Positions 1 through 23,604 of a stretch of 64,000 nt of DNA are shown piece after piece (position 1 is the first letter of the stretch; each line of letters starts with the position of its first letter). The translations under genes were made by a program, and so were the position numbers. The DNA is taken from the NCBI RefSeq assembly GCF_000143415.4, contig NW_003314264.1:1869710-1933709 (forward strand), in the 5' to 3' direction. The DNA is from Selaginella moellendorffii (lineage: Eukaryota; Plantae; Lycopodiophyta). Below the pieces are notes generated by a model that made no database searches, was not told where the DNA came from, and saw only the letters and a list, made by a program, of their open reading frames with translations.

Positions 1-366
1 GTTTGTTCATTGAGCGTGTGGTGAGCTTTCCAAGATGAACATCATTCCTATTAGCCAGACATATAACTTAATGGTGAGAACATTTAGATATTATTCAATG
101 TTATCTTTTTCTAACGAATCTAATTGTGAAGGTGTAGCAAGAGGCATTGCTAGTCTGGAGAAGTCATTTAACTCATTTGACCCTTAGTGTATTTTCATGA
201 AACTAAATAACATTCATATTATTAAGGAATTTCTCTAGTACCTTTTTTTTACGACATAGAGGCTTGCATTTCTTTCAAAGGTGATTTAGTAAAAGGCCTG
301 AGGGCACATGCCATTCTATTTCTCAGACCAGTATTAAGATATACTAGTGCAAAGGGCCACATGCCA

Positions 367-3300
367 TCACGCCTCCTCTGATTCAGATTCGGATTGTTCA
401 CCTTGAAATAAAATACATTAGAAACTTAGTAAAGGAATATTAAATCTCACCTTGAACCCGGGTTATGAATGCTCTTGCTGCATCTCTTGCATGGTCTGGC
501 AAGGTGATGGTGGCACTCTGCTTCCGCATCCAACCATGCACAACATTATCCACCGATATGCTCATGCTGGGATCCCTTGGATTCAGCACCCATCTCTTTT
601 CTAGGCAATCCTTCGTATATCCGTAACTTGGCTTGAACCACTCCACAGTTACATTAAAGGAGTTAGTTTCCGCGTCCTCCTCTGCATCAGTGATGCAGCG
701 CCCCACCCATATCATTTGTTTTTTATTACTGGGTCTGACAAGCACGACCATTCCTTTGCAGACTTGTACTGGATTGAATGCTGAATCCGGCTTCTTGTTC
801 CTCGGCCCACAATAGTGATCCTCAACATCGTTATCTGTCACTGCATTTCCAGAGGACATTGTTCCGCTACTATCTGGTGCTCTGGGTTCTGGCCAAAAGG
901 ACTCTTCCAATTCTTCATATACAACCGGCCCATTTTGGATAGCAGATATAATCTTCTCCCAGTATTCGAGCAAAGGCTTGCACCTCTTAAAATAGGATTC
1001 TCCACCAAACAGCAACCCCCTCTTCCAGAAGGCAATATGCTGTCTAATCCCGGCCACTATACTTTCCTGATCTTTGAGTCCATCCGGGTGCATCGGCCGT
1101 GGGGAACCCTGAGGAATCATAGGTTCCCCAGTTATGGGATCTCTCTTGAAGAGTTCAATGCCGTCCACTGGCAGCCACACTGTGTCCCATTCTCTCATCT
1201 TGTACCTCATCACTGGAGCACCGTCACGCATGCTGAAATGAAACTGAAGAGGCTTGGAGTGGCCAATCAGCGTTTCGGATCCGTCCCTGATGTAGCCTCT
1301 TACAAACCCCTTAAAGTCTGGAACCTCTGTCACAAGTGCAGCTTCAACAGTGCCTTTGATGCAATTTTGGAATTCATCGTAGAGTTGTGGGAGGGTGAGG
1401 ACATTGGATCGCCGGAGGGACTTTGCCAGGTGACTGAACATGGCATCGACGTCTTCATGAGTGTGCCCAACCATGAGAAAGCCAAGTGTAACCGTTTCAA
1501 ATATGCCTTTGGCAACAAGCATTGCCAAGTACGCGAAGACGTACATGTTTTTGTTCTCACTGCCAGCATTGTCTGTTTGGAGCAGAAGATGGGGTGGAAG
1601 GCCACATCGGCCGCAAGAACTTCCTTGAGATTCTGCTTCGTTTGGATGAGGCTGTGCATTCACCGGGCGACCAGCCTCGTCGGAATGGCATGAGGCCTCA
1701 CGTGATAACCCTACAATCTGACGGCCAACATATTCACTGGGATGGCATGGGGCCCCACGCGATACTGCAAGCCTTTGCTCCTCCTCCAGCTGAACCCTGT
1801 ATGGGGTTCGATCGACAAGGGCCTTATGCAAGGGTTGGCCGTTCAGCTCAGTCTGCACACTTTGCAGAGACCTTAAGTGTTTTGCTAGGGACGCAATCAT
1901 CATGTTTGCACCCCCACCACCCCATAGAGGTACAAAGAAGTTCCCATAGTTCTGGGCACCATGCCCATGAGCGATTATGCCAAACAGAGACACAGGCAGC
2001 TGCATGGATGAAGAGATTGCCTTGGGGGCAGGATTGAGTCGAGGTAAGCACGTCTTTTTCTGGTCCATTTTGTCGTGGATGATGCAGAGGTAAGAGTCAG
2101 GTCTCTCCATGGAGAGAATCCTGTTATGATAATATGCAGTCCTGCAGCTTCTCTGCTCGATGTTGTGGTCGAGCCACCTTCTAACCAACGTCTCTCGCTC
2201 TTGAGCGCTGCAAGAATTCTTCGACAAAGCCATTTTGATAGCAGTGCACTCGTCACACTTTGAAAAGCTGGAGTACTTTCCTATACTCACATCCCTGAAC
2301 CTGTTGCTCCACAATCTACTAAATCTAGATTGGCTCAGCTTCCTGTAGCCATTACTCTGGAGTTCCCGATTCACATCTTCCAATATGGCCCCCTTGGTAT
2401 ACATGGAAGGGAGAATTCGTTGGGTGTCTCGTGTTCCATCTTCCAAGAGGCGGGTTTTATGTGGTTGCTGCTCGCTACATGTCTCGACAAACCTCTTGAA
2501 GATTGCCTCTCCATATACAACATGACCCCTGGTTTTGTGCGTACCGTCGTTCCCATGGACTGCCTGTTGAACCCTTTATTCCTCGAACTCAGTTTTGATT
2601 CTGTAGAATGTGGTTCGAGGGACTCCATAAATGATTCTCCATGCCTTCATGCAGACCAAACCCCTCTGGAAGACCATGCCCCCCACCTGATGTTCTGAAG
2701 CATCAACAGATGACCGTAATGCCTCATACACAAAATTGCGAGCTGCCTTCCAGGACAATGTCTTGTATCTTGCTCTCTCCTCTTCAATAGCATCCCAATC
2801 AGCATGTTGACAGCACCTCCTCTTGCAACAAGCAACTGTCGAGACCATTCGAACCTCCATCGCCATTTTCTGCCTTTTCGGTTCGTTGCTTAGATCCCTT
2901 TGGCTGCGCTGTAGGAAGGTGTACTTTCTTTTCCCATGAAGAGATGTTCTGTCATCAGTTGTAGTGGTGTTTGATTGTGAATCCTTCACATTCTCAAACA
3001 CTAAATGCCTCTATTTCCACCGCACAATGCTTCCAATAGTCAGACTGTTTTCTTCTGTGTCCACAACCTCTAAAATCGCAACTCCAATATCATCCCAGCC
3101 CAATTCTTGATTAGCAACCGCATCTCTTGGATCGACAACTGTGGCTAAGCCCTCAGCTACCACCTCCCCCTCGGGGTTGTTTAGAAACACCTTTGCCTGA
3201 ATCCATGTAGCACGGTTCTTAAGATCCACGGAGGGAACATGCGTCGCACTTGCGCTGTCCCCAACATCTGCTTTCTTCTGCAGATTTTTCAAGGCAACAA

Positions 3301-3505
3301 CAACATTTACCCCGATGACCATCTCTCCTCGTTCAATAGCGACCACATTCCCATCGAAGACAGTCTCTACTGATACAGCAGCATTGCCTTCCCCAAGCCT
3401 TTGACAGTGTATAACAAAGTTCCGATCCATAGACACAAGGGTCCCTTTTGCAACTCTCTTCCCACCATTCAAAATGTAAACCTTTTCCCCAACCCTGAAG
3501 GCCAT
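367..3505 (-). pseudogene. DDE/D-type transposase-like gene (DUF7869/Sola-like catalytic region) with two in-frame stops
   Basis: ORFs 3011-3505, 2576-3001 and 440-2446 are one reading frame broken only by TAG (3011-3013) and TAA (2576-2578). Motifs: CCxxxC and YGV-x-R-TFY..HGN; CDEC; IIHDKMDQ-K--LP; LQTDNAGSENKN; FLMVGHTHEDVDAMFS. The N-terminus has two V-x-L..VA-x-G..LG..V repeats resembling the Tnp1/En-Spm-associated beta domain. A GT-AG intron at 450-402 gives a last exon GEQSESESEEA* ending at 367. Confidence 0.8.
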
Positions 3506-3657
3506 TCTGAAAGTGCAGAAAAGAAGTTAAGACCATACAAAAAATGATTGGAGAATGGCCTAAATCATAACATACCAAACAACCTCAATAGCATGAGGCC
3601 ACATGCCATTATTCAAACATGCTATTGACACCCACGTGAAATTTCGCATTCACAAAA

Positions 3658-3849
3658 TTGGCATGAGGCCTCACGCTATCTTTGGCCCCTGCTAGCCTAT
3701 TGCTATATTCCTTTTGCCTTGTTGCAACTGTATATATTTTTGTGTGCGTGACTAGTCACCCATACAAAAATATATACAGTTGCAGCAAGGCAAAAGGAAT
3801 ATGGCAATAGGCTAGCAGGGGCCAAAGATGGCATGAGGCCTCATGCCAT
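3658..3849. repeat. 192-bp near-perfect inverted repeat with no loop
   Basis: Arms pair as position p with 7507-p around the centre GTGACTAGTCAC (3748-3759). Each end is one 22-bp palindrome (3658-3679, 3828-3849). Confidence 0.95.
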
Positions 3850-4041
3850 CTTGATATACACACAGCTGCAGGCAAGTAAAAACATACATGACAATACGCT
3901 AGCCATGAAATTGCAAGGGCCCAAGATGGCATGTGGCCTTATGCCATTTCTAAATGTGGTCCTAAACCATTCCATGGTGAACATACCAGGAAGCACAAGT
4001 GCCGAATATCAAGAGGAAGCGGTAGCCACACCAAAGACAGT

Positions 4042-4170
4042 GCCGCTCGCAACACCGCAACTACTCGTAGCGCCGCTCGCAACACCGCAACTGCTCGTAG
4101 CGCCGCTCGCACAAACTGCCACTCGCATAAAATGCCGCTCGCAATGGCGCTCGCAATGCCGCAACCGCTT
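4042..4170. repeat. GC-rich tandem repeat, 30-bp unit GCCGCTCGCAACACCGCAACT(A/G)CTCGTAGC, decaying rightwards
   Basis: Two full units plus degenerate GCCGCTCGCA repeats seen directly. Confidence 0.85.
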
Positions 4171-4537
4171 GTAGACGCATAAACCACAGCTCACAACGCC
4201 GCTTACACAAGCAGCGCTCACTGCGCTCAGCAGAACCAAGAACACGGCGCACAAAAATGATAGACCTAGGAATGAGTTCAAGAATTCAAAAATAACACAC
4301 GCTTGAACGTCACATCAAATCCTCTGACAAACCAGATCTTATGATTCCTCTGACAAATTTCAAACTGAGTAGCTTCTAGACTTTGCTGTCGGAGGTTGAA
4401 CTTTGTCACATCATGTCCTTGCCTCGATCCAGCTGTGCCATGTCAGTGATTCGAACTTTGCCATGCCATGTCAGCGATCCGCGCCAAGATTATTCGCCAT
4501 GTAAAGGAATAATTATGCTGTGTGTGTACGTCCATTT

Positions 4538-5471
4538 ATGGCAATATAAGGCCACACGCCATTCAAAGAATAATGCTAGTCGAGCATTTTTTGGTGCATT
4601 TTTGGGTTCAAAATTGCATGAGCCCACATGCTATAAAGTTTACCTGTACCAAAAATAGAAACAGCTTTATTTACTTGGGAATTTAAGTGGTTGAGGCATT
4701 TTTAAACTTACAAACACATGCCCTACTTACATTCCTTTGGTTGCTTACATTCCTTTGGTTGCTAGCTTTCGTTTGTCCCCTTCACTAGCCTGAGATACAT
4801 TTGCTCGGCATCTGCCTCTTACAGCATTTGCCCAGAAAGGGCATCTTTCTTCACGCAGCATTTGCCACATGTTTAGGGTTTAGGGTTTAGGGTTTAGCAA
4901 TTCAGTAGCTTGATAAACATGCAAATACAGAACTTGATGCAAAATCCTTGGATATGTCACAATGCCCCTAGGACCATAAACACATTTCAATAGAGAGGGT
5001 CCTTTCATTTCATAACTCTTTACGTAGATCTTGGTGAAACCAGAGTTAGTGAAGTTGGTTTCTTGTGATCCCGCATCTGATTGTGATGTCCCTTTGCAGT
5101 GTCGATGGAAAGGTCAATGCACACCAAACTGTAGAATCTTGGAGCAAAATAACGGTCGGATCTCTAGCAAATGCCCCTGAAACATTGTAAGGCTCGTGTG
5201 GTCTCATGTGGTGTCCGATCGAGATGCTTCTTTGCAGGGTCATCAAGAAGGACATTGTATACCATTCTGTAAAATTTAGTTGCGATCTAACGGTTAGATC
5301 TCCAGGAAACTCAAAACAATCTCGCACGTGTCAGAATATTCTAGGAATATACTCCTATGTGCTCCTGAAAATGGCATGCGGCCCCACGCCATTCAAGAGA
5401 TAACGCCAGATGACGCCGAGCATTTTTTGGTGCATTTTTTGGGATCAAAATTGCATGAGCCCACATGCTTG
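4538..5471 (+). repeat. Pair of ~95-100-bp direct repeats (4538-4634 and 5371-5471), each bounded by two palindromes
   Basis: Shared core CACGCCATTCAA...CGAGCATTTTTTGGTGCATTTTTGGG(T/A)TCAAAATTGCATGAGCCCACATGCT. Confidence 0.85.
4872..4897 (+). repeat. Interstitial plant telomeric repeat (TTTAGGG)3 TTTAG
   Basis: Read directly from the sequence. Confidence 0.95.
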
Positions 5472-5789
5472 AACATCATCCTCTGACAATTTATTTAGCT
5501 GAACATCTGGCATTTTTGGAAATACAAGATGCTTTGGAATATCCAATCATGCATGGTATAAATATAGCGAGGGTATTAAATGATATCCCAATCATGATCT
5601 TTCTTTTGGATTTCGCGTGCATGCAGTCCGAGGAATGATGACGTTGCGGATTTCTTTTGGATTTCACGCATGCGCGCGCCGATCCAGAAATTAATGGTGG
5701 CGCCCAAGTCCGAGAAATGATGACGTGGCGGGATTACCAACCGTCGTGACATTTCGCGCGTGTGAGGTTAGGTTTTGCATTTTGCTTCG

Positions 5790-5990
5790 TACTCGCGCTC
5801 GCATCGCGCTCCCACTCGCGCTCCCACTTCTCTACAGGTTTCTCGTGTGCATCGGCGTCCACTCGCGCTTGCATCACACTCGCGCTCGCATCGCGCTTGC
5901 ATCGCGCTCGTGTGCATCGGCGTCCACTTCAAGACACACCCAGTTTGTAACTTCGCCGCCAACTCCGCCGCCCACTCCGCCACCCACACG
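5790..5990. repeat. GC-rich low-complexity repeats (CTCGCGCTCGCATCGCGCT, GTGCATCGGCGTCCACT x2, ACTCCGCC) upstream of the plus-strand gene
   Basis: Repeated units visible directly; probable promoter or 5' UTR region. Confidence 0.7.
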
Positions 5991-6452
5991 CAGCCCACTT
6001 GGCGTCCCGAGAGATTTCAGCGCCACTCTCCAACTGTAAGTGGCAGAGTAGCCTTGCTGCTACGATCCGCTGCACACACAGTGCACATTCGCCAGCGAGT
6101 CCGGTTGTCACGCCTCCATTCGGCTTCAAATGGTAAGTCTTTTAGGCCAAGTAGAAAATGGCATGAGGCCACATGCCATTCAGTAGCAACATTGGCATGC
6201 ACCGATTGGGCTCTCGAGTGCAGTCCGGTTACAGATGGCGTGTAGCCTCACGCTATCTTAGGATGCAGCCTCAAGACATCTGATGCAGTGGTGAATGGCG
6301 TGTGGCCTCACGTTATTTCCAGCTACTAGCTTTTCATCTGTCAGCTCTAATTGTTGTGCATTTCTGAACAGGCGAGGAATTGCGTTCTTCTTCCAGCCAC
6401 TGTCAATGTGGATGCAGAGAAGGGGGAGGAGCTCACCAGTTGGACTTTCGGG

Positions 6453-9400
6453 ATGGAAGGCGAGGATCTGAGGCTGTACAACACAGATGCTGGGAGAAAA
6501 GAATGCATGGGGATCCTCATCCAAGTGACAGACACTCCATGCAGTTCCATGCAAGAATATGGACTGGCACTTGTGGTAGAGACAGCGTCTGCCTTCAAGA
6601 TCCACCTTGCACATCCTAGCGGCTTCCCGGAGGGGGGTAGCGGCTATGAGGAATTCCTAGAGGGAGCTAGGGAGAGGTTGTCCAGGAGGCCCACAATTTT
6701 AAAGACGCTGCGGGTCTATGAAGATCACATGGAATCCACGGACCTCACCTACGGCGATGTTCAAAAACTATATTCCAACATTGAGCCGTTGAGAGTGACT
6801 CCAGTTCGCGAAGCAAAGGGGAAGGGGGTCGATCTGGAAACTACCTCGAAGTAGAAAAGGGTGGTCAAGCTCAAGCCGATGTCCGACTCTCCTGCTCCAA
6901 AAAAGAAGCTACTCAGTGATGCCATTGCCTCGGGTTCGAACACTACACCCACCAAAAAGAAGAGCCGCAAAGAGCAGAAAGAGCAAGAAGAGGCAGCAAA
7001 AATCGTCGCAGATAATAGTACTTGTTACTATTCCAACAAAGTATATACAATCGACGTGAGCCGTATCGACATCCAAAGCAAATACAACCACAGGCTAGTA
7101 TCTGATGAGTGGGTGGAGAAATTGAAGCAGAAGATGCTGGCAAGTCCAGTAACACCCGACATCGCAGACGTGATCCCCTACTACCAAAAAATGAAGGGCG
7201 AGATGAGGTTTCCAGACTTGATCAATAGGAAGGTGTTGGATGATCAGAACATCCGGTTCTATGCCGTCTCCGGGCAGCATTCTAGCTTGGCGATGCAAGA
7301 GATAGTTGTGGATATTATGGTGGGCGAGGAGGTGAAGAAAGTCTTCAAGACAAGAGTTGTCCGCCTGATAAAAGGCAACTCGCCCCTCCGATCTATCATA
7401 TACATCTCCCACGCGCAGAATGTCAAGCAAGAAACGTGCTACAAATCGGGTCTGCACGAGACATTGGCACGAACACGGAAGCTCTGGGTTCAACTGAAGA
7501 AGCCACAAAAACCAGGACAAGGACGTGCACTAGCAACTAGCGCCTGGCAGGTAAGCCTCGTTGTATGTGGCATAGCATGTGGCCTCACGCCATTTCCATT
7601 GCAGGAATTCTCGAGTCTTCTCTCGAAAACACTGGGGGTCAATGACACACTCAGCATCCATAACATTCTACTCGCGACAAAAGTTGTTTTTGACAAATGG
7701 GTAGATGTGCTGAGGAGGTACCATGACGGGGAGTTGCCAAAGTCAATGGGTGTGGAGGACGGCCGGAAGCCCAATGATTTGAAGCTCAACGCCTTGCGTT
7801 TCTCGCGGTCTCTAGACGACGACGACCTTCTGACAGTGGCTAATGCTCTTCTACGTGGTGAGGTTGTCTTCAACAAGACCAAAATGACTCCCGGCCATAT
7901 TGTGACATACGAGGACTTGTGCACGACTCTGAGAGCTCGTGCGCTATTGAAGGATTGGATCTTCGAGCAAGTGGCCGTGGAGAGGGTGAGCATCGACACC
8001 ACGCAAGAGATGATGGAAGCGCTGGAGTTGTCAAATGAAGACATCGACAAGTACGTGAAGGGGGCCCCCAAGTTCATCGATCTGATGCGGGATGCCACGA
8101 AAAGTAAAGCTGAGAAGTTGGATCAGTATCCAAATTTCATTAAGATTGATGTCGACCGCCGGCTTCAGAAACAGCTCGACCCCGCAGCAGAGGCCTATCG
8201 AGAACCTTACCGGGTATACTTGAATTCGGATGAGGATCAAAGGTGGAGGAGCATCGTTTCCCGCGGAGATGAGCAGGTCAAGAACATCTTTTGTGTGATG
8301 GACTTCACAAACGAGGAGATCACTCATGCAGACGAAGTCAGCTCCATCATTGACTTAATGGTGGGACTTGCGGAGGTGGAATCTTCAGTCCACTATATGA
8401 TCTACGACTCCGAATCCTATCACAAGTTCTGGAAGGCCTTGAACGAGGTGAAGGCTCGGTTGAAAGGCAAGGAGATGCGGGAGATCCATGGGATAATGGC
8501 TAAGAAGAAGATACCGACGAATGTCCGCATCTTCACACTCGCCCTTGTTATTGGTCCTGCAGCAAAGTGGGACTGGAGTGACTTCCCAGCTTCGTTCGAC
8601 AAGGCCAATCGAATTGATCTGAGGGAGGTCAATTTACCTGTGCCTGAGGAACTGAAGACGGCTATGGAGCTTTCGAATCCAAAGAAAGCTCCAGGTGCAG
8701 CATGGGAAATGCTCAGCTGGGTCTTCAACGCAATAGCGGGTGGGTCACCTGCTTCCGACTCCAAGGGCAAATGCGTTGTCGAGTACAACTGCGGCGGACT
8801 ATTCTTTCGAGCCGCACTACTCAAGGGTGTCCCGTGTGTTGCGGTGACAAACTCCATTGAAGAGGTGACTTCAATGGAGCATATAATTACAGTTGCCAAA
8901 GAAAAACAGTATCTTCTCTGCGAACCTGGTGAGTACGCACTTTAAGTTTAAATGTTATCTCACAAGCTCTGTATGCAGGAGCGTGGCCACCCCCAGATGC
9001 TGAAACGGCGTTAACAGCTACTGTTGAAGATAACCATGTTGGGCCGAGCTCACAACCTGCACAAGGTAAGGTCACGTGAGGCCTCACGCCATTTTGATTA
9101 TAGATCGTTGTGAATATTCAGACACGAGGACTGAAAAGCGCACTGGTGGCGCATCGAAGAAGGACAAACAGAAAAGCAATAGGAAAAAAGGAGGTACAAA
9201 TTATATTTGCAATGGCGTGTGGTCTCATGCCATTCCTTGCAGGAGAAACTTCTTCAAAGGCAAAACAGGCAAGCACCAGCCAAGCTCAAACTGACAGTGG
9301 TCATAAAAAGCGAAAGCACGTTGGACAGTCGTCGAGATCAGAGGCGTTTGATTCGAAAAGGAAGAAGGGCAACGAAAAGATGATAGGTAATGCCTCGCGG

Positions 9401-11752
9401 TTATGGCGTGTGTGCTCATGCCATTCATTGCAGATCAAGGGCTGAGTGAAAGCAGGCAGTCACCACCTCATGACTCAGATTCCTATGGCGGACTCCCCTT
9501 CCCCAATCTCAATGGAGAGGTACAATGGATGAGGGAAGCTTTTCAAGGCAGGGCCACGTTTTTCTCATCTCGTCGTCTTCGAAGGGTGCAAGAACGTGCA
9601 GAAACCATGTTAAGACAGTCGGGTGAGGATACGGTCCTAGGTCACGCACTAAAACAGGCTATGGATGTCTTGTATTTTGAGATGGAGACTCGGCCAGATG
9701 ATTTTCCCAAGATGGTCCTGGAAGAACAAGCCATCCAGCCTGAGCAGCCTATGGAAGAAATGCAGGAGGGGGATGAGGAGCCAGAGAAAGATAATGAGCA
9801 GGAAGAGCAGAAGGACGAAGAGGAGGACAAAGAAGAGGAGGACGAAGAAGAGGAGGACGAAGAGGACTTGGATGGTCCTCACAGTGGTGACGATCACAAT
9901 AACGACGACGACGATGATGACGACGATGGCCAGCCTGAGGTGGCCAAAGAGCGGCGGAGGAAGGTCATACAAGACAAACCATCAGGTAAATAATAATACA
10001 TCCATTCCTAACCTTTTACCATTTCTAACATTGTCCATGTAGGTCGCAGAGCAAATGGTAAGTAGAGATTATTCAGTTGAATTTACAAACTCTAGCCTTT
10101 AGTGTCGAGGAAGGATAGTGCCAAGCAAGGGTCGAAACGTATGTCCAATCCTTCAGAATCAGCAGTGCGCTCAAGTGATATCGGTCCTAGTTCCTCAATA
10201 GCAGTTGATGGTAAATACAGTATAGTCGATTCAATGTGCTAATGAGTTTGTTTTTAGTAGCACGGGAGGATACCATCTCAATCGAAGGGAGATATTTGGA
10301 CATGCATATGGATCCGCCAGTGGACTCTACTTGGCTGCAAGAGTCATCAGAGCTGGTGGAGGCTACTATCCATATCAACGCCAAGCAAGCTGACCACGCT
10401 CCACTTGATGCTGCCCATACCACTGAGTCAATCTTGTCCACGTATCCAACTGACGGTGACCAGGCGCCATTGGACCCACATGAGGCCGCCCCAGCCGCCG
10501 AGCCGGTTGTATCCTCATTTCCAACGGACTCAACGTGTGCCCAATCGTCTGACTACGCGCCGTTGGAACCTCCCTACACCGCCCCTGCTGCCTGTTCGGT
10601 CATGTCCACTTTGCCAACGGAGGCACCAGCTGAAATGGCGTGTGATCACACGCCATCGGAACCACCCCATGCCACTGTTGAGCCAGTTGTACCAGAGTCT
10701 ACAGCTGAAATGGCATGTGCCCACACGCCATCGGATGCGATTGACCCCACATTGCAGAGGAGAGTATTTCCGCCCTTCACGTTTCCTCGACCAAAACCCT
10801 CTCAACGACCATCGGGAGCAACATTCACTAATATTGTAGATGGTAAAATTGACTTGTACCATTTTTTATGCTGACGCATTTTATTTCAGAGTTACGGCGA
10901 AGGTACTGTATCGTTTTTGATCTGAACGGTGTCCTTTTCTCCCATGAGCGTGGCTCGTCCTCGAATGTCATTGCACCCTCCAAAGCCTGCGGTCGCAAGT
11001 TGGTCAAAAGAGACAGATTCACATTAATCACACGGGAGAAACTGCGGGATCTAATAATGACCATGCGACACTTAAAACAGAGGGCCGGGTTCAATTTGCA
11101 ATTGGGAGTTTGGACATCCATGATGCGCCACAATGCATTAATGTTGCTACAGATGATGCACGATCAGACGCGAGTAATATTACCATTTGACTTTCTCCTA
11201 ACGCAGGAGGATTGCTTGACTATGGTCCATGTGAGGGGTAGCAAGCCCATCTTCGTCAAGCCAGAGGCTGTAGTGATGAACCGGACTGCTAGCTCAAGTG
11301 AAATCCTCATCATCGATGACTCGCCGATTAAAACTGCAGCGAACACGCACACATATGCAGTGCACCCCATCTCTTGCAGTATGGAAACTAGGGAGAAGAA
11401 ACCGTATGTTCTGGGGGACCTTGCAAAACGGCTTGGAGCGATGGTGATAGAGAACCGGCCAGTCCAGGAGGTGGCTGCAGAAATCAACCAAATGGCAGAT
11501 GGAACGGTATATCAGAAGCCATTTGATCGGACAGACACCAGTCATCATTTATGGCATGTATATTGTCTAGCCAAGCACTATCCGCATCTCCATAATCTGC
11601 TCAACCGGATGGGTTCTTCGACCACTGAACATGAGCGTGGACGTATTAGAGAAGAGATGGCATTACTATTGGGTTTAAATCCTGATAGTGTGGAGAGTGA
11701 TGAAATTCCAAGATTATTGTATAGGCGTTGGAGGCAAAAAATAACAGTCTGA
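6453..11752 (+). pseudogene. Multi-exon element gene: ParB-like domain, degenerate DNA amino-methyltransferase-like region, acidic linker, FCP1/NIF-type HAD phosphatase domain; one in-frame TAG at 6852-6854
   Basis: ORFs 6351-6854 and 6861-8945 are the same frame. GT-AG introns at 7551-7604, 8929-8978, 9066-9121 (or -9103), 9194-9242, 9387-9433, ~9986-10042, ~10058-10102, ~10211-10257 and ~10843-10889 join the downstream ORFs in frame. Motifs: HRLVSDEWVEKLKQKM...FYAVSGQHSSLAM (ParB/Srx-like); CIVFDLNGVL, GVWTS, ILIIDDSPIK (FCP1-like). Start codon uncertain. Confidence 0.75.
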
Positions 11753-12139
11753 GATGGCATGTATTTATTTAAAAATGTAACTTATTATGGCATGGGGTTC
11801 CATGCCATTGTATTAATATTAAAAGACAATTCTTTGAGAGGATTTGCATTATACTAGAAGTGTTACAGCATGTTATTGGAAGTCTACGAAGTTGTTTTAT
11901 TAATAATGGGAAAGTAAAGATTGAATGGGGACTTGGGCTCCACCTAGACTCGGAGCAACTGAGCCAATATTAAAAGGATGGAAAGAAATTAGACGACGAT
12001 GACAAGGAGAAGAGAGAGGTGAAGCAGTGGCAGGGGGAGAAGAAGTGATTGAGTAGACATTTCCTTGTTTAAAATAAAATGGCATGTGCCTCAATGCAGT
12101 TGAATTTTGTTATATTTATATACTATATAAAGGTTTGGA

Positions 12140-15100
12140 AACCTTATTTTACAAGTGGGATAATGACAATTCCCACTTTAACGAAATAGAGCTTTGAGTA
12201 TAACTTTGTTACGCTTGGCTTTTGGATTGATGCAGAAATGCTCTTCATTAGCTTTGGCATTATGGAGTTTGGCTTATAGATGTGTTGAAAAAGACATTGT
12301 GGGTTGCACCATGATTTCTTCTTTAGCATTGAAGTTAGTTTCTATGAGATTCATGATCATTAGTAGGAAAGACTTAGCTATAGGCTTCTTCGAGCTTTTG
12401 GTTCCTTGAGTTTTGTGCTCATTGTTCCATTTGTTAAAAGTTGTTAGGGGAAAGCATTTTTGGCTCTTTAACTTCGATGTTGAAGTTAGTGTTTGCATCT
12501 GGCAATCATTGGTGATGATTGACTATCATCTTGGATAGTTGATTATCCTTGTCAAGAGTTTTGCTTGATTATTGTTGTTGATATAAACTGAGTTGCTGTT
12601 CTTCAGGATGGTAGATTCTTTCTTCAACAATGATTATGCATCTCTTTATTGATGGATGATTGATGATCTTTCATGATGGTTAGTTATTCTCTTTGATGGC
12701 TTATGGCTTTTCGCATTATCACATGTTCTTTGTGGTTTGCCTTGGATTGGTCTATTGGGTTTAAGACATCAATAGGATATTGCAGATGCTTGCTTGAGCA
12801 ACTCTAGTTCCTTAGTATTGTTGACTGAGATCTATTCAAATTGGCTAGTGCAATGGTTGATATGAACAAGTGTTTGTTTTCTTTGCAACATTCATTTTGT
12901 TTAGTTGATTATTGCTTGAGTTAGTCTTATAGATTCGGATGATATGGCCTTCGGGTGATACATTCGCGAGCATTGTGTTTGTTAGTTAATGATACTTTGT
13001 GTTCTTTGAGTTGTGTTTTGTGAGTTGTTTAGCATGCTATCTGCCATTTTTGATAGTTAAGTTTCATCATTGAGTTTCCTTAATGATCTACTTGCTATTG
13101 AATTTTGTTGAATGGTGATTCCTATGTTTACCACTTATGATGATCTTGATGGTTCCTATACTCAACTACTAGTTTATCGGATGATAACTTACTTGGAATA
13201 CTTTTGTGTTCTCATCTAAGCTTTATTCACTGATAATTAAATCTCTAAGATATCATTGTCTATGACATTGATATTGTCCATCTATTGATCTTTGAGTTTG
13301 GGCTAGTTTAGGCAAACTGGCTTCGGCACTTCATGTGCATATTGAAATCTCTAGTCATGGGGTAGCTACTGTCGACTGGTCACATCACCCGCCTCTCTGT
13401 CGATGTTCCTTATTCCTTTCAAAGGGCGTGACCGTGTAAACAACTCTAACTGCCTGTTTACAGTAGTCTATCTAAACCTTACCGACGGGTTTGGTTTCTT
13501 TGCTCAGGAGGGTTGGGGCCTCTGGCTTCTCTCTCTATGTCTCTGCGGGCAGGGGCGTATCACACTTTTGTAGCTGGGTGACACCCAGAGCAGCAAGGGT
13601 GGCTGACTCTGTTGGTCATTTCCTTGTTGGCGACGGTCGGAAGGTGTCTGAGCTAGTAGCGCATCTGTGTTAAACAAAGAGGTTGCCTCCTAACTCATTT
13701 AAGTTGGTGCATTTCTCACATAGTGTGAGTACCATAAACTTTTTCTGGAGTTGTTTCCTTGGCGGTATTCTAGACTCGAGTATGCATCGACGAGGACGTC
13801 GATCTTTCCCAAGGGGGGGAAAGTGTCGCAAATGTGACTTCGAGTATCGAAAGTTACCTGTCGACCAGTCCTTACGGACACTCTTTCCTTACTACCACGA
13901 TGGCAGAAGGTCGGTATTACTGGACCCTTTGTCAGCCCCTCTTGTTCAAGTGTTAGTAAACTGAACTTTGCATTTGTACTTGGCCAGATGAGCATAAGGA
14001 CGGAATTCCTAAATGTCTATTCAGCCAAGTATACTTGACTTGGCTTTTTAGTTTTCTTTTGCTCTGCATTTGGCATATCTATGGAATGTAGAGATTGGCC
14101 TAAACACAATGGTATTCGTCCCGTGTCCAAATTCGCATTCTAGCGCCATTCCATATTTAGTAAGTTTCGAGCTTGTCCCAGAGACTAACTCCTGATACTA
14201 AGGGCGGCTTAGGGTGAAAGCCCAAAACATGTGTTCCTCAAGGGGGGGGGGGAGGGGTATAGGGGGTTCCAAAGGTATAGTAGGGATAGTGGGTAGGTCG
14301 GGCATGGCCAACCAACCTGAGGCATAGTCTAGCTCCCTCTTGCGTGCCTGTCCTTGTTTTGCATCTGGCTTAGGTCTAAGCCCAAGCTCCATTAGCTGGT
14401 GGAGTACCCATATCCTCACGTTAGGCCACTAGTATGCCGAAATAGCACCAAACTTCGTTTGGCTCTATTTTGCATGTTGGTCCTGGCATTAGGATGCTGG
14501 TTGCTTCAAGACTGTTCCAAGTCGCTCCGGGCTCCTGTCCCTTCACTCATTGGGCTGTATGCTTAAGAGTTGCTCTGTGGTCCGGTTCCATCACTCCTTG
14601 GCTCCACGCTTGGGAGTTTAGCACCATTCCTTCGTTTAGTGGCCGAAGGCCCTGAACCTCAGGTTTCACACCACATTCCTTTGGACACGTGGCATAAAGG
14701 GGGTTTAGGTTCCGCTTTGTGGTGTTATCCTATGGTAAATCACCATAGGATAAAGGGTAAAAACCACGTGCGCTACACTTGTGAAGGAAAATTGAAAAGT
14801 GATTGTTAGTTGTTTTATGACTTGTAAATTTTATTGAAGACTTTTGACATTTGCTTTGCTTGATGATGATTTAGTAGTGATGGGCTTACTTTATTAGATG
14901 GTGTTGTAAAGGATTGTGCCATTATTATTGCATGGTTTTTCTATATTAGTATCTCAATTCCATCTCCAATTATATCATTTGGTTGCGTTTAGTCTATGGT
15001 GTTAGAATATATTGAGTCTTGGATGTAGTGATTGACTCTTTGATGGTGTGTTATTTGTAGTTGAGTATTGTTGAAGGATTAATCTTGGATACTGAGTAAG

Positions 15101-17900
15101 GTATTTTCAACCTTGGTTAGTTTGGTTAGTTTGGTTACTAAAGAGTTTTGAGTGGTGATTTACTTTTGTTTTCTTCTAGCTTTGTTTTAGTATTGATAGC
15201 ATTGAAGTGATGTCTTGACATTGACATTATTAACATTGAGATTAGAGTGAGATGAAATGTTTCCCCATAAAATTGATATTAAGTTTCATTAGTCTCAATG
15301 CAGATAGTGTTGATGATTTGGTTATAGCTTTATATTGTTAGCATTTGTGTATTTACTAGTTAGCAACTATATTAGCTTTTAAATGAGTTGAGTGACAAGT
15401 TTGAGTTAGTTTTGTTTTAGATGAGAATGCTTAGTAGAAGTTAAGCTTTGGTTTTTCCTCTAAAAGTGATTTAGTTATAGATTATGCTAGTTTTATGAGA
15501 GGAAGAATTAGTGATCAATATTAAAGTTATTAGTTCCTTATTGGATTTAAGTTGAGGATATATTAATCATTGATAACTTTTTTTATGCTTATTATAAAGT
15601 GAATTATGTTTAACTATAGATAGATTCATGAGCATAACTTTGTTGTGCTTGGTTTTGGATTGATACAAACATATTATTCATTAGATTTGGTTTTATAAAA
15701 TTTAACTTATGGATGTGTTGAGAAGGATATTATAGGTTGTACCATGATTATACTATAATATTGTATAATGTTCTTAATATTATACCATGATTCTTTTTTG
15801 GCATTGATATTAGTTCATATGAAACTTGTAATCATTGTTGGACAAAACTTAACTATAAACTTTTTTGAGCTTTCAGTTTTTTGAGTTTATACTCATTATT
15901 CTCTTTGTTATGAGCTATTGAGGAAGCGATATTGAAGTTAAATTTTACATTTAGTAATCATTAGTAATGATTGACTATCTTCTAGAATATTTAATTATCC
16001 TTGTCAAAGGTTTTGCTAAACTATTGTTTGTGTTAAATGATTTGCCTTTTTTTGGGATGGTAGATTATTTCTTCGATGATCTCTTTATTAATAGAATGAT
16101 TTATGATCTTTTATGCTGGTTAGTTATTCTTTTTAATAACTTTTTACTTTTGGTATTACTACATATTATTTATGGTTTATTCTAGATTGATCTTTTGAGT
16201 TTGAGATATCAATAGGATGTTGCTAGTGCTTGCTTGAGCAACTATAATTTCTTAATATTGTTGACTAGGATCTATTTGAATTGGCTGATGCAATAGTTAG
16301 TATGAATAAGTGTTTATTGACCCTCGTGACATTCATTATATTCTATTGATTGTTATTCAAGTTGGTTCTATTAGAGTAAGATGTTATTTTCTTCGGGTGA
16401 TACATTCATAAACATTTTTTAACCAGTCAATAATACTTTGTGTTTTTTGAGGTGTGTTTCATTGTTTAGTATGTTATTTAAAATTTTTGGTAATTAAGCT
16501 TTATCATTGAGTTTTCTTGATGATACATTTGTTATTGAATTTTGTTGGATGGTTAACCTATGACTTTAACCTTTAATAATCTTGGTGGTTCTTATAATGC
16601 TAATTTATCATATGATAACTATATTGGAATACTTTTATATTTTAATTTAACATTTATTCACTGATAATTTGGTCTCTAAGATATTATTGTCTTTGACTTT
16701 GATATTGTCCATCTGTTGATCTTTGGGTTTGGGCTAGTATAAGCAGACTAGTTTCAATACTTTGTATATATGGTGAAATCTTTAGTTATGGGGTAGTTAC
16801 TATTGACTAATTACATCACCTGTCTCTCTGTCGATATTCCTTATTCTGTTAAAAAAACATAACTATGTAACAACTCTAATTACTTGTTTACAATAGTTTA
16901 TTTAAACTTTACCGACAGGTTTTGCTCAAGAGGGTTGGGGCCTCTAATGTTTCTCTTTATATCACATGTAGCTAGGGGTATATCATATTTTATAAACTAG
17001 GTGACCCCTAAAGCAATAAGGGTGGTTAACTCCATTAATCATTTCCTTATCGGTAATGGCTGGAAGGTGTCTAAGTTGTAGCACATTTGCATTAGATAGA
17101 GAGGTTACTCCTTAACTCATTTAATTTAGTGCATTTCCCACAAAGTATGAACACCATAAATTTTTCTAAAGTTGTTTATTTGACAATGGTCTAGACTAAA
17201 ATATACATCAATAAGGATGTCAATATTTCCTAAGAAGGGGAGAGTGTCATGAATGTTACTTTGAGGTATCAAAAGTTATTTGTCGACTAGTTCTTTCAAA
17301 TATTATTTCCTTACTTCCACGATGGCATGAGGTTGATTTTGCTAAACCCTTTATCAGTCCCTCTTATACTTGTAGAATTAAATAGGCATTTTGAGTGTAC
17401 TTAGATTGGACGAAGACAAAATTCCTATTAATTAAGTAAATTTAGCCCAGTAAAGAGTTTTTATCTTATTGTGTCTTGCATTGGCTAGTGACAAATCCCT
17501 CAAGACTATATTAAGACTAATCCCTCAATATGGTTAGATGATAGTTTACCATATTTACCAAACACTCTTACTTTCATACTTTTTGTGTTGGTTCCATTCT
17601 AGTGCCATTGGTTATTTATGAAAAGTTTCTAGATCTGTTAATTAGGTATATCTATGGAATGTAGAGACTGTTTTGAACACAATTGTGTTGTTTTTGTTTC
17701 CAGATTCACAATCTAATGTCATTCCATGTTTAATAAGTTTTTATGATTTGAGGAGGGGGGGTTTAGTGGATATTAGGTAGGTCAGTAGGTCGGGCATGGT
17801 TGAGCAATCTAAAGCATAGTGTAATTCTCACTTACGTGCTTATCTTTATTTTGCATCTAACTTGGGTTTAAGCCCAAGCTCCATACCATGCTAGCTAATG
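12140..17900 (-). mobile_element. Two successive decayed copies of an LTR-retrotransposon internal region (gag/protease-like, probably Ty3/gypsy)
   Basis: 12180-14400 aligns by eye with 15630-17890 (e.g. TTCGGGTGATACATTC, CACCYGYCTCTCTGTCGATRTTCCTTATTC). No intact ORFs, AT-shifted. Minus-strand remnants resemble a zinc knuckle and an aspartic protease IDxG motif, but weakly. Confidence 0.55.
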
Positions 17901-19149
17901 AAGTATGTATATCCTTGCATTTCAATCTTTTTTATGAAACTTTTTGCTCCTTATAGCAACCTCTTCCATCTCTTCCCAGTTGCCATAAGAACTTTTTTTC
18001 CACCTATTTTAACCTTAGGAATTTCTTTGTTTGCATCTCTTATACCAGCTTCATTAAATTCAACATCTAAATCCATTTAAGGGAAAATCTCTACATGATT
18101 TTATACTCAATTTTATAATTTAAAAACTTTTTCTTGTTTTAGGAAGGGATATTCAAATGCACTAAACATTTGAGAACCTTGCAAACACTTTATAAATTGC
18201 CCCTCAAACCCTTAAAGACTTCGTGAAAAGGTAACAACATTTCCTTTATAAAAGATATAAAATTATTAATTTGTAAAATACTTGAAGACAGAAAAAGATA
18301 AATAGCTACCTCTATTACCAGCTGTAAATACACACCAAGACTTTGGAAACACAAGTGTACAATCCATGATTTCAAATTATTTTGCAGTGAAAAAAATTTT
18401 GAAGCCCATAAACTACAAAATCACAGTGTTTGAAAATGGCAAAAAGGATCTTGACATAACCCTTTTGGTTTTATTCTATTTTTTTTCTTCAATAAGGAAA
18501 CACTAAGCATTTGTGAGAGTATTATACTATTTTAGTACTTTTTCTTTGTTTCTATCGTAATTTACATTCACCAAGATATATGAAATTACAACTCTTGGAA
18601 TTCTATGAGGAATGTCAAGGGGTAGTATAACTATTTCTCATCTTAATAGGCAATCCTTATGAAACCTAATATTCATATGATAATAAAGATTAATATGAAC
18701 TTTTCAAAATAACTAAATAGTGGAATGTACCCAGCAAAGCTGGGACTTTTACTAGTATTCTTTAAATGGTATATATGTTCCATTAGAATATTCTTTAGTC
18801 AACCGTCTTGGCTCTCCTAACTCCCCATTGATGAAAAGTTTATATTAATTTTAATATGCATAACAAACCTAATATAAAAATGTATATTAGAAATGTTTAG
18901 CATCTTTAGTAGTCTAGGCAAGTCTGCCAATCTGGGATATACTATCATCTGTCAAAAAAGTACAATGAATATTTGAAATGCAATATGAAATATTGGAATG
19001 GAGATATAAATGTTAATATGAATGCTGGCTTTTTTGCAAGTAGAACTTTGCTAGAAAAAACTCTTCTAAAGAAGTTTTGAGCCTGGAGAAGGTAATAAAT
19101 TTACCTCATATAGAAGGTGTGAAAAATACATTTGTACCCTAGGCACTAT

Positions 19150-20345
19150 ATGAAAGATTATCACCCTTTATCCTATAGTGATTTACTATAGGATAACCAT
19201 GAAATGGAACTTAAACCCTATATATGTCATATGTCACATGCCATATGCCCAAGTACAATGGTGCGAAACTTAAGTTTCAGGGCTTTAGACCACTAAATGA
19301 AAAACTAGAGCCAAACTCCCAAACTTATAACTAAAGAGCAAAAGAACTAGAACATGAAATGACTCTTGAGCATTCAACCTAATGAGTGAAGGGGCAAAAG
19401 TATGAAGCAATATAAAAATAATACTAGACCATCCAACTTCCAAATGCCAGGACCAGCATGCAAAATAAAGCCAAACTAAGTTTAGCACTATTTTAGTATA
19501 TTAATGGTTTAATGTGAGGATATAAATACTCCATCAACTAGCATGGTATGGAACTCTGACTTAGACTTAAACCAAATGCAAAACAATAATATAGGTGGGA
19601 GTTAGATTATGCCTCAGATTGGTCAACCATACTTAACTTATCCACTATCCCTACTATACATTTGGAACTCCCTATAGCCCCCTACCCTCTTATGAGAAAT
19701 GCATGCTTTAGGCTTTCACCCTTAGTCACCCTTAGTACTAAGAGTTAGTTTTTGGGATTAACTCAAAACGTACTAAATATGGAATAACATTAGATTGTGA
19801 ATTTGGACACAAAATCAACATTATTGTGTTTAAGACAATTTTTACATTCTGTAAATATGCTAAATTAACAAATCTCTAGAGGGAGTGCTTTATCATCATT
19901 TTTGCACTATGAAGATCCCCCAAAAACCCATGCTTAGAGCAACTAGCAGTCTACACACTTTCCATAAATAACAATTGGGATCAAACATGACTAATATAAG
20001 GTGCATGATAGCAAAGGTGTTTAGCAAACATGGTAAGTATTATCTAATAAATATTAAGGGACTAAGCTCAATATTGTGAGCATTCCTAACACTAACAAGT
20101 GCAAGTCAATGAATGAGTATCTCTAACCAGGTCAAGTATGCTTAACTAATAGCACTTAAGAATTTTGTCCTTATGCTCATCTGATCAAATGCACACATAA
20201 AAACTAGTTTCTCAATTAACTTATGTGGAGATTGATAAAGGGTCCAACAATATCAACCTCCCGACATCGTGGTAGTAAGGAAAGAATATTGGAAATAACT
20301 AACCAACATATAACTTTCAATACTTGCAATCACATTCATGACAAC
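19150..20345 (+). mobile_element. Decayed copy of the same retroelement family, inverted relative to 13830-14790
   Basis: 19640-19860 is the approximate reverse complement of 14065-14295; 19160-19200 matches the small hairpin region at 14725-14760. Confidence 0.7.
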
Positions 20346-21647: not shown

Positions 21648-21810
21648 GTATCCAACCATGCACAACATTATTCACCAATATTGTCATGTTTGGATCCATT
21701 AGATTTATCACCCATCTCTTTTCTAGGCAATCCTTATTACAGCATTATTATAGTAGGAATTTAGTTTGAACCACTCTACTATCATATTAATAGAATTAGT
21801 TTCCTTGTCC
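21648..21810 (-). pseudogene. Decayed fragment of the 3' end of the transposase-like gene
   Basis: ATCCAACCATGCACAACATTAT...ACCCATCTCTTTT(T)CTAGGCAATCCTT...TTGAACCACTC matches 528-670 of this window. Confidence 0.85.
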
Positions 21811-23604
21811 TAGTGATAACTAAGAGCATAAATAGGAATATTTCTAACCTTATACTAGTAATGTATATGCTCAAATATTGTAAGTTGACTAATCACATAG
21901 TAGCATCAATATTGTACAGGTTGTAGGTGAGGATTCCTAGTGCCTTAGTCACTATATTAGATTATTTCATATTATTACATAAGAATTAAATATAGAAACT
22001 AAGGTTCTTACAGCTTCAATTCGTAAATCTTAATCCATCCTAACCTAGAGATGAGTCTTATGATTCTCACCCTTGTATCCTGGTTGGTTGAGATTCTTCC
22101 TCATTCCACCACTATCTTTTTTCTCTTGGCTTGTGGCACCTTGCCACTACTCTTGTTTATATTACATATATAAAACAAATTTGTAAGTATGTCAAAGAAG
22201 GGAGCACAATACTAGTGATAAATTTGAGAATGGAAACAATTTAGAAGATTTCATATGGGGCCTATGGAAGGGAAAGATGAGTCTGGGAGGAGGAGGCAGC
22301 TGCTATACTAATCTTTGATTCCATGTTAGTTCAATGTAAATTTCTAATTATATAAAAGCATTTTCCTTATCTTTAGAGTTTTCTCATTAGTGGAGATGCC
22401 AAATCCTTTGATTGTTTTGTAAGTTGTAATGAAAAGGACCGATGATGGTCTTCTTCAATAGCTAACTAGCAAATAAGTCATAGCATATATATGTTTGTGC
22501 ATGGGGTATGATAGTAGATGAGGTTGTGCACAAAGATATAATAAAGAACATGATGGTGGACTGTAATGTTTTGCATGTCAAAATTAGAATAACATAAAAT
22601 ATTCTTTTCCTGTATTCTTTAGCCTTGACAATATGCACTTCCAGTGTTATAGATATGAGTTAGTGGAATACAAGTAATTCATGTTTGTCTTCTTGGTATA
22701 AATCAACAGCATTAGGTGGACTTTAACTTTGCAATTTTTCCCATTTGTTGATTAGTGGTGTGTTCACATTAGTTCTATTAAGACTTTACACTCTTCACAT
22801 GTTCCATCCTTCTGTTATTTGGTTTGATGCCAACAACTCCATACCATCCAAATTTTGGAGTATGATTTAGATTGTGTTTTGTAGCATTACAATATACATA
22901 TGTTTTGAATCTTTTATATAGGCACAAAAACGTTCAACAATCAGATCTAAGTCATTTCAACTACAAATTTTATCTTTCTCAATGATAATTCTGCACATCT
23001 ATATGCTGATGCTGGTATAGGGCTGAATTGCCCTTGCCAGACCACCAAAGTGATCTAGTGTTAGTGAAATTTCTTTGTCTTTAAGTGTGGCTAATCTATT
23101 GACTTGATCAATGGATTGCACCATACCAAGTACTATTATTATTATATGTTTATAGGGTCATTAGCACCCAGATGGAGACCACAAACTTCAATAATGGTAA
23201 TCTGCCCTAACCTCAACTGAGTGAGTTGGAGTTTCAAGTAAGTTTCAATTTTACCTATAGTTGTCACAATATTAACTTTTAATCAGTTAAAATAACTATA
23301 AGTCTCAAGATTTCTTATAAATAATATTAAACAAGATTAAAAACTACTTAATTTATTTCTTCACATAGACATAATCTCTATTAATAAAAATATAATTAGG
23401 ATTTAATCTAAACTTTGTATTGTATCTATAATATGTAAGATATATATGTATTTTCAAATCTCTCATATTTATTTGTATTGTGCAGTTTCTTTATAGGATA
23501 TAATATCAGGAAAACTTTACTGTATTATGGACATATTTATAATAAAAACCAAAATATCTTGGTTTAGAATCTTCAATTATTTTTGTCTTTAACCTCTCCT
23601 TTTT

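What the first reader, a model, noticed from the sequence alone, without database searches (positions are those of the whole stretch)
6133..9433. Palindromes sit at the branch-point position of the element's short introns
Seen: introns 6133-6183, 7551-7604, 9066-9103/9121, 9194-9242 and 9387-9433 each contain one palindrome. In most it ends 4-11 nt before an AG. Copies at 6235 and 6295 are also followed within 5-6 nt by YAG. The right arm often reads CTCAC or CTCAT, matching the YUNAY branch-point consensus. Inference: the binding sites are hidden in, or gave rise to, ~50-nt introns. As RNA hairpins they would mask the branch point and could make splicing of the gene regulatable.
Basis: partly seen in the sequence, partly recalled or inferred. 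Interest (0 to 1): 0.85.

Follow-up and report, generated by a model that had tools for sequence, protein, structure and literature searches.

The report
Transposon binding sites double as branch-points
A plant jumping gene is dotted with 21 copies of a 22-base palindrome, likely docking sites for its own ParB-like protein; three or four copies sit inside predicted ~50-base introns where the palindrome likely also supplies the splicing branch point, most likely because such small introns leave no other room, and I found no sign that this regulates splicing.

Summary
The window holds a broken copy of an abundant plant DNA transposon: a DUF7869 transposase head-to-head with a gene for a predicted ParB-fold plus methyltransferase-like protein. 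The palindrome occurs 21 times across the element and nowhere else in 64 kb. Intron 6133-6183 is not supported; the acceptor is likely 6371. ~50 nt is the host's normal intron size. 'Gave rise to' fails for intron 7551, whose position is shared with distant homologues, one lacking a palindrome there; the downstream introns look like copied exon-intron units. Hairpin control is weak: only 2 of 4 fold over the branch point, there is no strand bias, and relatives' palindromes lack a branch motif. No RNA data cover the four introns. Best reading: DNA binding sites that double as branch points by space constraint. The scan noted this element type in two other genomes, without the branch-point overlap.

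The parts
443..3505 (-). DUF7869 DDD-type transposase gene; two premature stops in this copy (near 3011 and 2576)
   Evidence: Pfam PF25273 E 8e-43; 129 homologues; P0001, 97% identical, reads through the region
3588..3947 (.). Four palindromes upstream of the transposase start, inside a predicted 5' intron (about 3512-3987, minus strand); includes a 190-nt near-perfect hairpin 3659-3848
   Evidence: intron inferred from splice motifs only
4613..5471 (.). Three intergenic palindromes (4613, 5371, 5450); 4550-4632 and 5380-5469 are an 83% identical duplication that carries them
6130..11752 (+). Predicted accessory gene, 11 exons, 1,649 codons: ParB/Srx-fold domain, helical region, methyltransferase-like domain, long low-complexity linker, NIF/HAD-like C-terminal part; one stop (6852) that other copies lack
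6133..6371 (+). Predicted intron 1 (239 nt) with palindromes at 6158, 6235, 6295 and a separate CTAAT branch motif at -22
   Evidence: acceptor 6371 also used in one short contig of run X20
6300..6371 (+). 72-nt GT..AG join whose donor lies in the left arm of palindrome 6295; would give an out-of-frame 34-codon ORF
   Evidence: X20 record 28, depth 4, 29 and 30 letters on the two sides, below the tool's 31-letter bar
7551..7604 (+). 54-nt phase-0 intron, position conserved in distant homologues; palindrome 7572-7593, CTCAC A at -18
8929..8978 (+). 50-nt predicted intron without palindrome, CTCAC A at -17
9066..9103 (+). Predicted intron, 38 nt (or 56 nt to 9121); palindrome 9071-9092, CTCAC A at -18 only with acceptor 9103
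9194..9242 (+). 49-nt predicted intron; palindrome 9212-9233, CTCAT A at -16; predicted 8-bp RNA stem over the A
9387..9433 (+). 47-nt predicted intron; palindrome 9403-9424, CTCAT A at -16; predicted 8-bp RNA stem; resembles intron 7551 at both ends
9986..10889 (+). Four further predicted introns without palindrome (9986-10042, 10058-10102, 10211-10257, 10843-10889), YTNAY A at -15 to -18
1685..1763 (.). Two palindromes inside the transposase reading frame
10635..10731 (.). Two palindromes inside a predicted coding exon of the accessory gene
293..367 (.). Two degenerate palindromes downstream of the transposase
11787..11808 (.). Palindrome downstream of the accessory gene
12194..12194 (.). 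Point where this copy is cut by another repeat; other copies continue for at least 546 nt
   Evidence: loose ends and X2 record 23

Best explanation
The 22-bp palindrome is likely a double-stranded DNA site for the transposon's own predicted ParB-fold protein, and in three (possibly four) predicted short introns its CTCAY half likely also serves as the branch point. Sites spread through the element by local copying. Host-type introns of about 50 nt cannot hold 22 bp beside a donor, branch point and acceptor, so an intronic copy is tolerated mainly when its own CTCAY faces the sense strand and lands at -16 to -18. One such cassette entered or overwrote an old intron (7551); others multiplied with exon-intron units in the low-complexity linker. 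Splicing of these introns is likely constitutive; the RNA stems at 9194 and 9387 would at most slow it. Shown: copy number and positions, motif spacing, frame continuity, homologue gaps, relatives' palindromes. Inferred: protein binding, use as branch point, the copying route, constitutive splicing.
For: 21 copies in 293-11808, none in the other 52 kb; 14 lie outside this gene's introns, 4 in reading frames. The model's N-terminal domain matches PadC (Z 9.8, rmsd 2.9, 98 aligned), KorB (Z 9.2) and pNOB8 ParB (Z 8.4); the ten best Foldseek rows are Noc/ParB chains, best E 1.3e-3. 20 of 80 transposase loci (partly redundant; no shuffle control) hold 4 or more copies of their own palindrome, at least four different motifs, none with YTNAY by inspection. 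Host introns are 44-73 nt, median 52 (17 hand-picked). Placements that leave the -24..-13 zone free: 0 of 9, 0 of 20, 0 of 18 and 4 of 25. Sense-strand arm matches YTNAY in 4 of 4 intronic copies against 13 of 34 arm readings of the other 17 copies (tally). Loose ends of two X9 contigs show a longer variant with a further palindrome intron, A again at -16. Introns 7551 and 9387 are alike at both ends (each similarity reached by 4 of 231 background pairs). Precedents: VANC motifs gather in introns and other non-coding parts by tandem repeat formation (PMC5735166, passages); ParB-like PAG3 lies next to inverted-repeat arrays (10.1101/2025.02.11.637652, section 8).
Against: No binding data and no lariat data. 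No transcript shows splicing of the four introns; X19 contigs, of guessed RNA status, run unspliced into 7551 and across 6133, 6371 and 10843-10889. No Foldseek match reached E 0.001 and the model is middling (pLDDT 68, pTM 0.46). The transposase could be the binder instead. The positional excess over chance is modest (P 0.025-0.057) and the introns are not independent. All three copies in intron 1 are followed by YAG within 4-6 nt (background 0.20 for 4-11 nt), which my reading does not explain. Two introns do have stable predicted stems over the branch A (z -2.5 and -1.7).
Confidence: 0.62

Rival explanations
1. Regulated splicing: the palindromes fold as RNA stems that hide the branch point, or the protein bound to its DNA sites alters co-transcriptional splicing, giving the element a feedback switch on its own accessory gene.
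For: Branch A predicted fully paired in 9194 and 9387 (1.0, 1.0), stems of -10.5 kcal/mol. Retaining either breaks the frame. One X20 contig uses a donor inside palindrome 6295 for a non-productive join, beside unspliced contigs. YAGs follow all three intron-1 copies.
Against: Branch A pairing is 0.07 in 7551 and 0.42 in 9066; it is 0.97 in palindrome-free 8929 and 0.6 or more in 7 of 11 host introns. Sense-strand folding is stronger in 8, weaker in 6, tied in 4 of 18 transcribed copies, and 2 vs 2 among the four. Relatives' palindromes lack YTNAY and L048's matching intron has none.
Confidence: 0.13
2. The palindrome cassette creates new introns: it brings a branch point, a nearby AG and an upstream GT are recruited, and the unit spreads as a small introner within the element.
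For: All of 9066, 9194, 9387 and 7551 follow an exonic AG; 3' tails are alike (8 of 9 nt in two pairs) and 7551/9387 resemble each other end to end; a longer variant carries another unit; palindrome 6295 supplies a donor in one contig.
Against: Intron 7551 predates this palindrome. 5' parts of 9066, 9194 and 9387 are unlike each other. No palindrome in any of 17 host introns or elsewhere in the window. No intron-less DNA join among the joints shown (15 of 42, 4 of 4).
Confidence: 0.15
3. Pure coincidence: CTCAY is just part of the site's consensus; true branch points lie elsewhere or some of these introns are not spliced.
For: 13 of 34 arm readings outside these introns also match YTNAY; 6 of 17 host introns lack a YTNAY in the slot; placement P is only 0.025-0.057; 9066 has an alternative acceptor.
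Against: In each intron the palindrome's A is the only YTNAY in the slot used by 6 of 6 palindrome-free intron ends of the same gene; a fifth unit in another copy repeats the -16 spacing; frame continuity needs 9066, 9194 and 9387 removed.
Confidence: 0.1

Closest known systems
VANDAL/VANC anti-silencing system of Arabidopsis (PMC5735166; passages read)
   Same: Transposon-encoded accessory protein; short motif accumulated in introns, intergenic and terminal non-coding parts; motifs and exon/intron layout evolve by tandem repeat formation; each family has its own motif.
   Different: VANC motifs are 9-nt and asymmetric, the transposase is Mutator-type, binding and demethylation are shown. Here the site is a 22-bp palindrome, the protein has a predicted ParB fold, binding is untested, and the site overlaps the branch-point slot.
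Red-algal Plavaka elements with PAG2/PAG3 (bioRxiv 10.1101/2025.02.11.637652; section 8 and passages read)
   Same: DNA transposon with an accessory ParB-like protein, arrays of inverted repeats proposed as its sites, and a PF01555-type methylase gene.
   Different: There ParB is fused to a 2OG oxygenase, the methylase is a separate gene and repeats form tandem arrays beside the gene; here ParB-like and methylase-like domains are in one gene, the transposase is DUF7869, and sites are dispersed into introns and exons.
Bacterial ParB-parS and Noc-NBS (PDB matches; palindromic sites recalled)
   Same: Predicted ParB/Srx fold with following helical domain; dispersed palindromic DNA sites near the gene.
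   Different: No ParA, eukaryotic intron-containing gene, 8-17% identity; CTP binding and sliding not tested.
Introners (PMC9860276; passages read)
   Same: Introns similar to each other up to both boundaries (7551 and 9387), AG before the donor.
   Different: Confined to one gene of one element; one of them sits at an ancestral position; similarity is mostly the internal palindrome, a case that paper filters out as secondary insertion or duplication.
Sola-type DDD transposons (name from earlier scan notes and recall)
   Same: DDD-type core with motifs DKMDQ, QTDN and GHTHEDVD in the transposase.
   Different: Ends and target duplication could not be seen; no Sola profile was available to test.

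Membership tests
U2-type spliceosomal introns | GT..AG ends and removal restores the reading frame | tested here: met
   Met for 9066, 9194, 9387 and, through homologue gaps, 7551; not met for 6133-6183 (ATG joined to a stop)
U2-type spliceosomal introns | Branch motif at the host's usual distance from the acceptor | tested here: met
   A at -16 to -18 versus -15 to -22 in 6 of 6 palindrome-free ends and 11 of 17 host introns; 9066 only with acceptor 9103
U2-type spliceosomal introns | Junction seen in RNA; lariat branch mapped | tested here: inconclusive
   No listed run is on record as RNA; only the 6299|6372 join seen, below the tool's bar; lariats not testable
Introner (intron-generating element) | End-to-end similar introns at unrelated sites | tested here: inconclusive
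   1 of 6 pairs (7551/9387) is alike at both ends; other pairs share the palindrome and at most the 3' tail
Introner (intron-generating element) | New intron positions, absent from homologues | tested here: not met
   7551 position is conserved; no homologous sequence available for the linker introns
Introner (intron-generating element) | Copies spread into many host genes | tested here: not met
   No palindrome outside the element in this 64-kb window; the whole genome was not available
ParB/Srx superfamily | ParB/Srx N-terminal fold | tested here: met
   Z 9.8 PadC, 9.2 KorB, 8.4 pNOB8 ParB on residues 57-195 of the model; Foldseek best E 1.3e-3; no Pfam hit
ParB/Srx superfamily | Sequence-specific binding to a palindromic DNA site; CTP use | not testable with these tools
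   Needs EMSA/ChIP and nucleotide assays
N6/N4 DNA methyltransferase (PF01555) | Permuted Rossmann methyltransferase fold | tested here: inconclusive
   Homologue P0121 resembles PF01555 clusters at TM 0.36-0.41 by query, feature scores under 0.9; the window model gives Z 5.1-6.0 to methyltransferases
N6/N4 DNA methyltransferase (PF01555) | Catalytic (D/N/S)PP(Y/F/W) motif (recalled) | tested here: not met
   No such motif in the translated domain; the likely position reads DFTN, DLRR in P0121 and DFAR in P0132; position inferred from secondary structure
DUF7869 transposase | Pfam PF25273 above cut-off | tested here: met
   146.7 bits versus 26
Sola superfamily | Terminal inverted repeats and 4-bp target duplication (from earlier notes and recall) | not testable with these tools
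   Right end cut at 12194, left end not located, no genome
VANC-type anti-silencing system | Accessory protein binds the motif and removes silencing marks | not testable with these tools
   Only the layout resembles it; no VANC homology was seen in Pfam
RNA-structure-regulated splicing | Conserved stem over the branch point, favoured on the transcribed strand | tested here: not met
   2 of 4 introns; no strand bias; no Rfam match in 1-12500

The most novel reading that the evidence does not exclude
The element uses one 22-nt word as both the DNA loading site of its ParB-like protein and the branch point of several introns of that protein's own gene, so that site occupancy or RNA stem folding sets how much full-length protein is made; copying of the word with its acceptor also seeds new introns in the gene. 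This would be a splicing feedback loop built from a bacterial-type centromere site.
Probability: 0.12. Interest if true: 0.82.

Novelty: new variant of a known kind. Interest (0 to 1): 0.47.

Why it matters
Transposons that carry proteins to bind their own DNA are known from few cases (VANC shown; PAG3 proposed). This family adds a land-plant case with a ParB fold and long palindromic sites, and shows how such sites can be packed into a gene when introns are minimal: by sharing letters with the branch point. That dual use constrains how the site and its protein can co-evolve and gives a small, testable system for overlap of DNA and splicing codes and for intron multiplication. If regulation were shown it would be a new kind of transposon self-control; present evidence does not show it.

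Tried and rejected
No whole genome was held, so copies, ends and host introns could not be surveyed genome-wide. Run search: no RNA holder listed; X20 had no contig on 8880-9480; neither is evidence on expression. X17 depth peaks over the four introns of 8880-9480 and 15 of 16 listed variants are exonic: rejected as evidence, since the tool warns that dips are no finding and low exon depth inflates variant shares; in X1 alone 0 of 6 variants at 1% or more are intronic, too few to judge. Word-index searches for the accessory protein found nothing; PDB sequence searches found nothing; tblastn of accessory-gene pieces against the 80 loci found nothing, a profile found weak remains in L042, L048 and L076. 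Of 20 phmmer hits I retrieved 18; P0124 and P0125 look like repeat-driven hits and were left out of alignment A2; P0138 was aligned but not read. The C-terminal alignment A3 was misaligned and not folded. Element ends could not be defined from relatives. Rfam: no match. Acceptors 6183, 6186, 6261 and 6322 were rejected as productive (stops after 1-25 codons) but cannot be excluded as minor forms. Literature: 'DUF7869' 0 papers; searches on transposon + intron gain + branch point + palindrome (4 papers) and branch point + hairpin + intron retention + transposase (2 papers) listed nothing on this overlap, judged from listings only; subscription journals and Repbase Reports are not covered, and bioRxiv supplements were not seen. 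Iyer et al. (PMC4738411, passages) and Kojima (PMC12730594, passages) do not describe this gene type in the passages seen.
Full report
Setting. The window is land-plant DNA (PPR, Dof and MGAT2 genes) with very short host introns: 17 picked by eye from splice motifs are 44-73 nt, median 52. Earlier scan notes on this genome compare its elements with Selaginella ones; I did not test the species. No whole genome was held. Positions 1-12194 hold one element: a DUF7869 transposase on the minus strand (PF25273, E 8e-43) head-to-head with a plus-strand gene. Contigs of DNA runs cover it very deeply and with many variants, so it is an abundant family, though depth is not a copy number. This copy is broken: two stops in the transposase that a 97% identical protein lacks, one stop at 6852 that other copies lack, and a cut at 12194 where other copies go on.

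The palindrome. A self-complementary 22-nt consensus (ATGGCRTGWGGCCWCAYGCCAT) matches 21 places with up to 5 mismatches, all between 293 and 11808, none in the remaining 52 kb. Seven lie in predicted introns of the plus-strand gene, four in reading frames, four upstream of the transposase, three between the genes and three downstream of them. It is therefore an element-wide mark, not an intron feature.

Gene model. Ten introns chosen from splice motifs give one 1,649-codon frame whose only internal stop is 6852; retaining 8929, 9066, 9194 or 9387 breaks it. Five of the ten have no palindrome. Acceptor 6371 has CTAAT at -22 and is in frame with ATG 6130 (a one-in-three chance by itself). One 59-nt contig of run X20 (RNA status guessed, depth 4, 29 and 30 letters either side, under the tool's 31-letter bar) joins 6299 to 6372, a GT..AG skip whose donor lies in palindrome 6295; other X20 contigs read 6138-6401 unspliced. 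X19 contigs are unspliced wherever they meet an intron and may be DNA.

Branch-point position. In 7551-7604, 9066-9103, 9194-9242 and 9387-9433 the palindrome's CTCAY adenine lies at -18, -18, -16 and -16 and is the only YTNAY in that slot. Palindrome-free intron ends of the gene have theirs at -15 to -22 (6 of 6), host introns in 11 of 17, arbitrary YAGs in 39 of 330. 9066 is uncertain, because 38 nt is below the host range and acceptor 9121 is also in frame. Random placement would hit the slot with P 0.025 for four introns, 0.057 for three; more telling, almost no placement leaves the branch zone free (0 of 9, 0 of 20, 0 of 18, 4 of 25). The site is often asymmetric, and the sense arm matches YTNAY in 4 of 4 of these copies against 13 of 34 arm readings of the other 17 copies (tally). 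Loose ends of two X9 contigs at 9281-9284 show a longer variant with another donor and another palindrome-acceptor unit, A again at -16 (that both ends belong to one variant is inferred).

Origin of the introns. A full HMMER search gave 20 hits; of 18 retrieved, four run through the 7551 site without the 18 inserted residues (gaps of 15-19), nine end shortly after a valine at that site, as expected of unspliced gene calls reading into a phase-0 GT (inference), two start after it, two end before it and one is spurious. In locus L048 a decayed homologue resumes after an AG in exact register with 7605 (score 62, best of 300 shuffles 44), and the intron before it has none of L048's own palindromes. 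So intron 7551 is older than this palindrome. Introns 7551 and 9387 are alike at both ends (each level reached by 4 of 231 background pairs), and 9194 and 9387 share 8 of the last 9 nt; with the longer variant this points to copying of site-plus-acceptor cassettes or exon-intron units. Creation of the linker introns by the cassette is not excluded. No intron-less DNA join appeared among the joints shown.

What binds the site. A model of 6855-8927 (pLDDT 68) matches ParB-family folds (PadC Z 9.8, KorB 9.2, pNOB8 ParB 8.4; Noc and ParB fill the first ten Foldseek rows, best E 1.3e-3). The C-terminal part resembles PF01555 methyltransferases weakly and lacks the recalled catalytic PP-aromatic motif, so it is likely inactive here. 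Among 80 loci with related transposases, 20 hold four or more copies of their own palindrome, at least four distinct motifs, in non-coding flanks (loci partly redundant, no shuffle control). None of the four motifs inspected contains YTNAY, so branch-point ability is not a family trait, whereas palindromic sites are.

Hairpin control. Predicted pairing of the branch A is 1.0 in 9194 and 9387, 0.42 in 9066 and 0.07 in 7551; it is 0.97 in palindrome-free 8929 and 0.6 or more in 7 of 11 host introns. Folding z-scores are -2.5, -1.7, -1.2 and +0.1. Of 18 copies in predicted transcripts, the sense strand folds better in 8, worse in 6, equally in 4. This is what a DNA site gives, not a selected RNA stem. 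Against my reading: two stems are stable, retention would truncate the protein, and all three intron-1 copies are followed by YAG within 4-6 nt, which remains unexplained.

Comparison and verdict. The layout works like VANDAL/VANC (motifs in introns and other non-coding parts, spread by tandem repeats; PMC5735166, passages) and like Plavaka PAG3 (ParB-like protein beside inverted repeats; 10.1101/2025.02.11.637652, section 8), but belongs to neither. It fails two introner tests (PMC9860276, passages). Two earlier scan notes describe the same element type in other genomes; they are unchecked leads, they led me to the Plavaka paper, and they do not mention a branch-point overlap. My searches (listings only) found no paper on it. 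Verdict: observation partly confirmed; a real and neat overlap of a likely DNA binding site with the branch-point slot in three or four minimal introns, best explained by space constraint and copying; regulated splicing is possible but unsupported. New variant of a known kind; interest 0.47.

Noticed in passing
window 3659-3848: A 190-nt, 94% perfect hairpin with no spacer, capped by two palindromes, inside the predicted 5' intron of the transposase; could be a small-RNA source or a foldback. No Rfam match.
   Followed up: partly
window 1685-1706 and 9071-9092: The coding copy in the transposase and the intronic copy share the same two non-consensus letters in one arm, which suggests copying between distant sites.
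   Followed up: no
window 9400-9458: A minor set of copies (depth about 1% in X1) lacks 59 nt including palindrome 9403 and acceptor 9433.
   Followed up: no
window 10853-11752: The last exon encodes a NIF/HAD-like domain (PF03031, E 9e-6), in frame with the ParB-fold part in my model; it may be a fusion or a separate gene.
   Followed up: partly
window 6138: An X20 contig carries other sequence upstream of 6138, suggesting a truncated copy read from a foreign promoter or a rearranged copy.
   Followed up: no
window 8880-9480: Contig depth in run X17 peaks over the four introns; unexplained and not used as evidence.
   Followed up: partly
window 4875-4897: Short run of plant telomere repeats between the two genes; a telomere-repeat insertion also appears in an X1 joint near 6505.
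   Followed up: no
window 21650-21811: Old 75% identical fragment of the transposase 3' region.
   Followed up: no
window 12194-20000: AT-rich repeat family in two tandem copies about 3.4 kb apart plus an inverted copy; it cuts the element at 12194.
   Followed up: no
window 24256-29654: Host gene with many 44-61-nt introns and a C-terminal FG/GG-rich region, likely a nucleoporin (no Pfam hit for the long exon); two assembly gaps inside.
   Followed up: partly
L008 5967-6989; L005 50-333; L001 526-1708: Related elements carry tandem arrays of their own palindromes with periods of about 24, 47 and 140 nt upstream of the transposase.
   Followed up: partly
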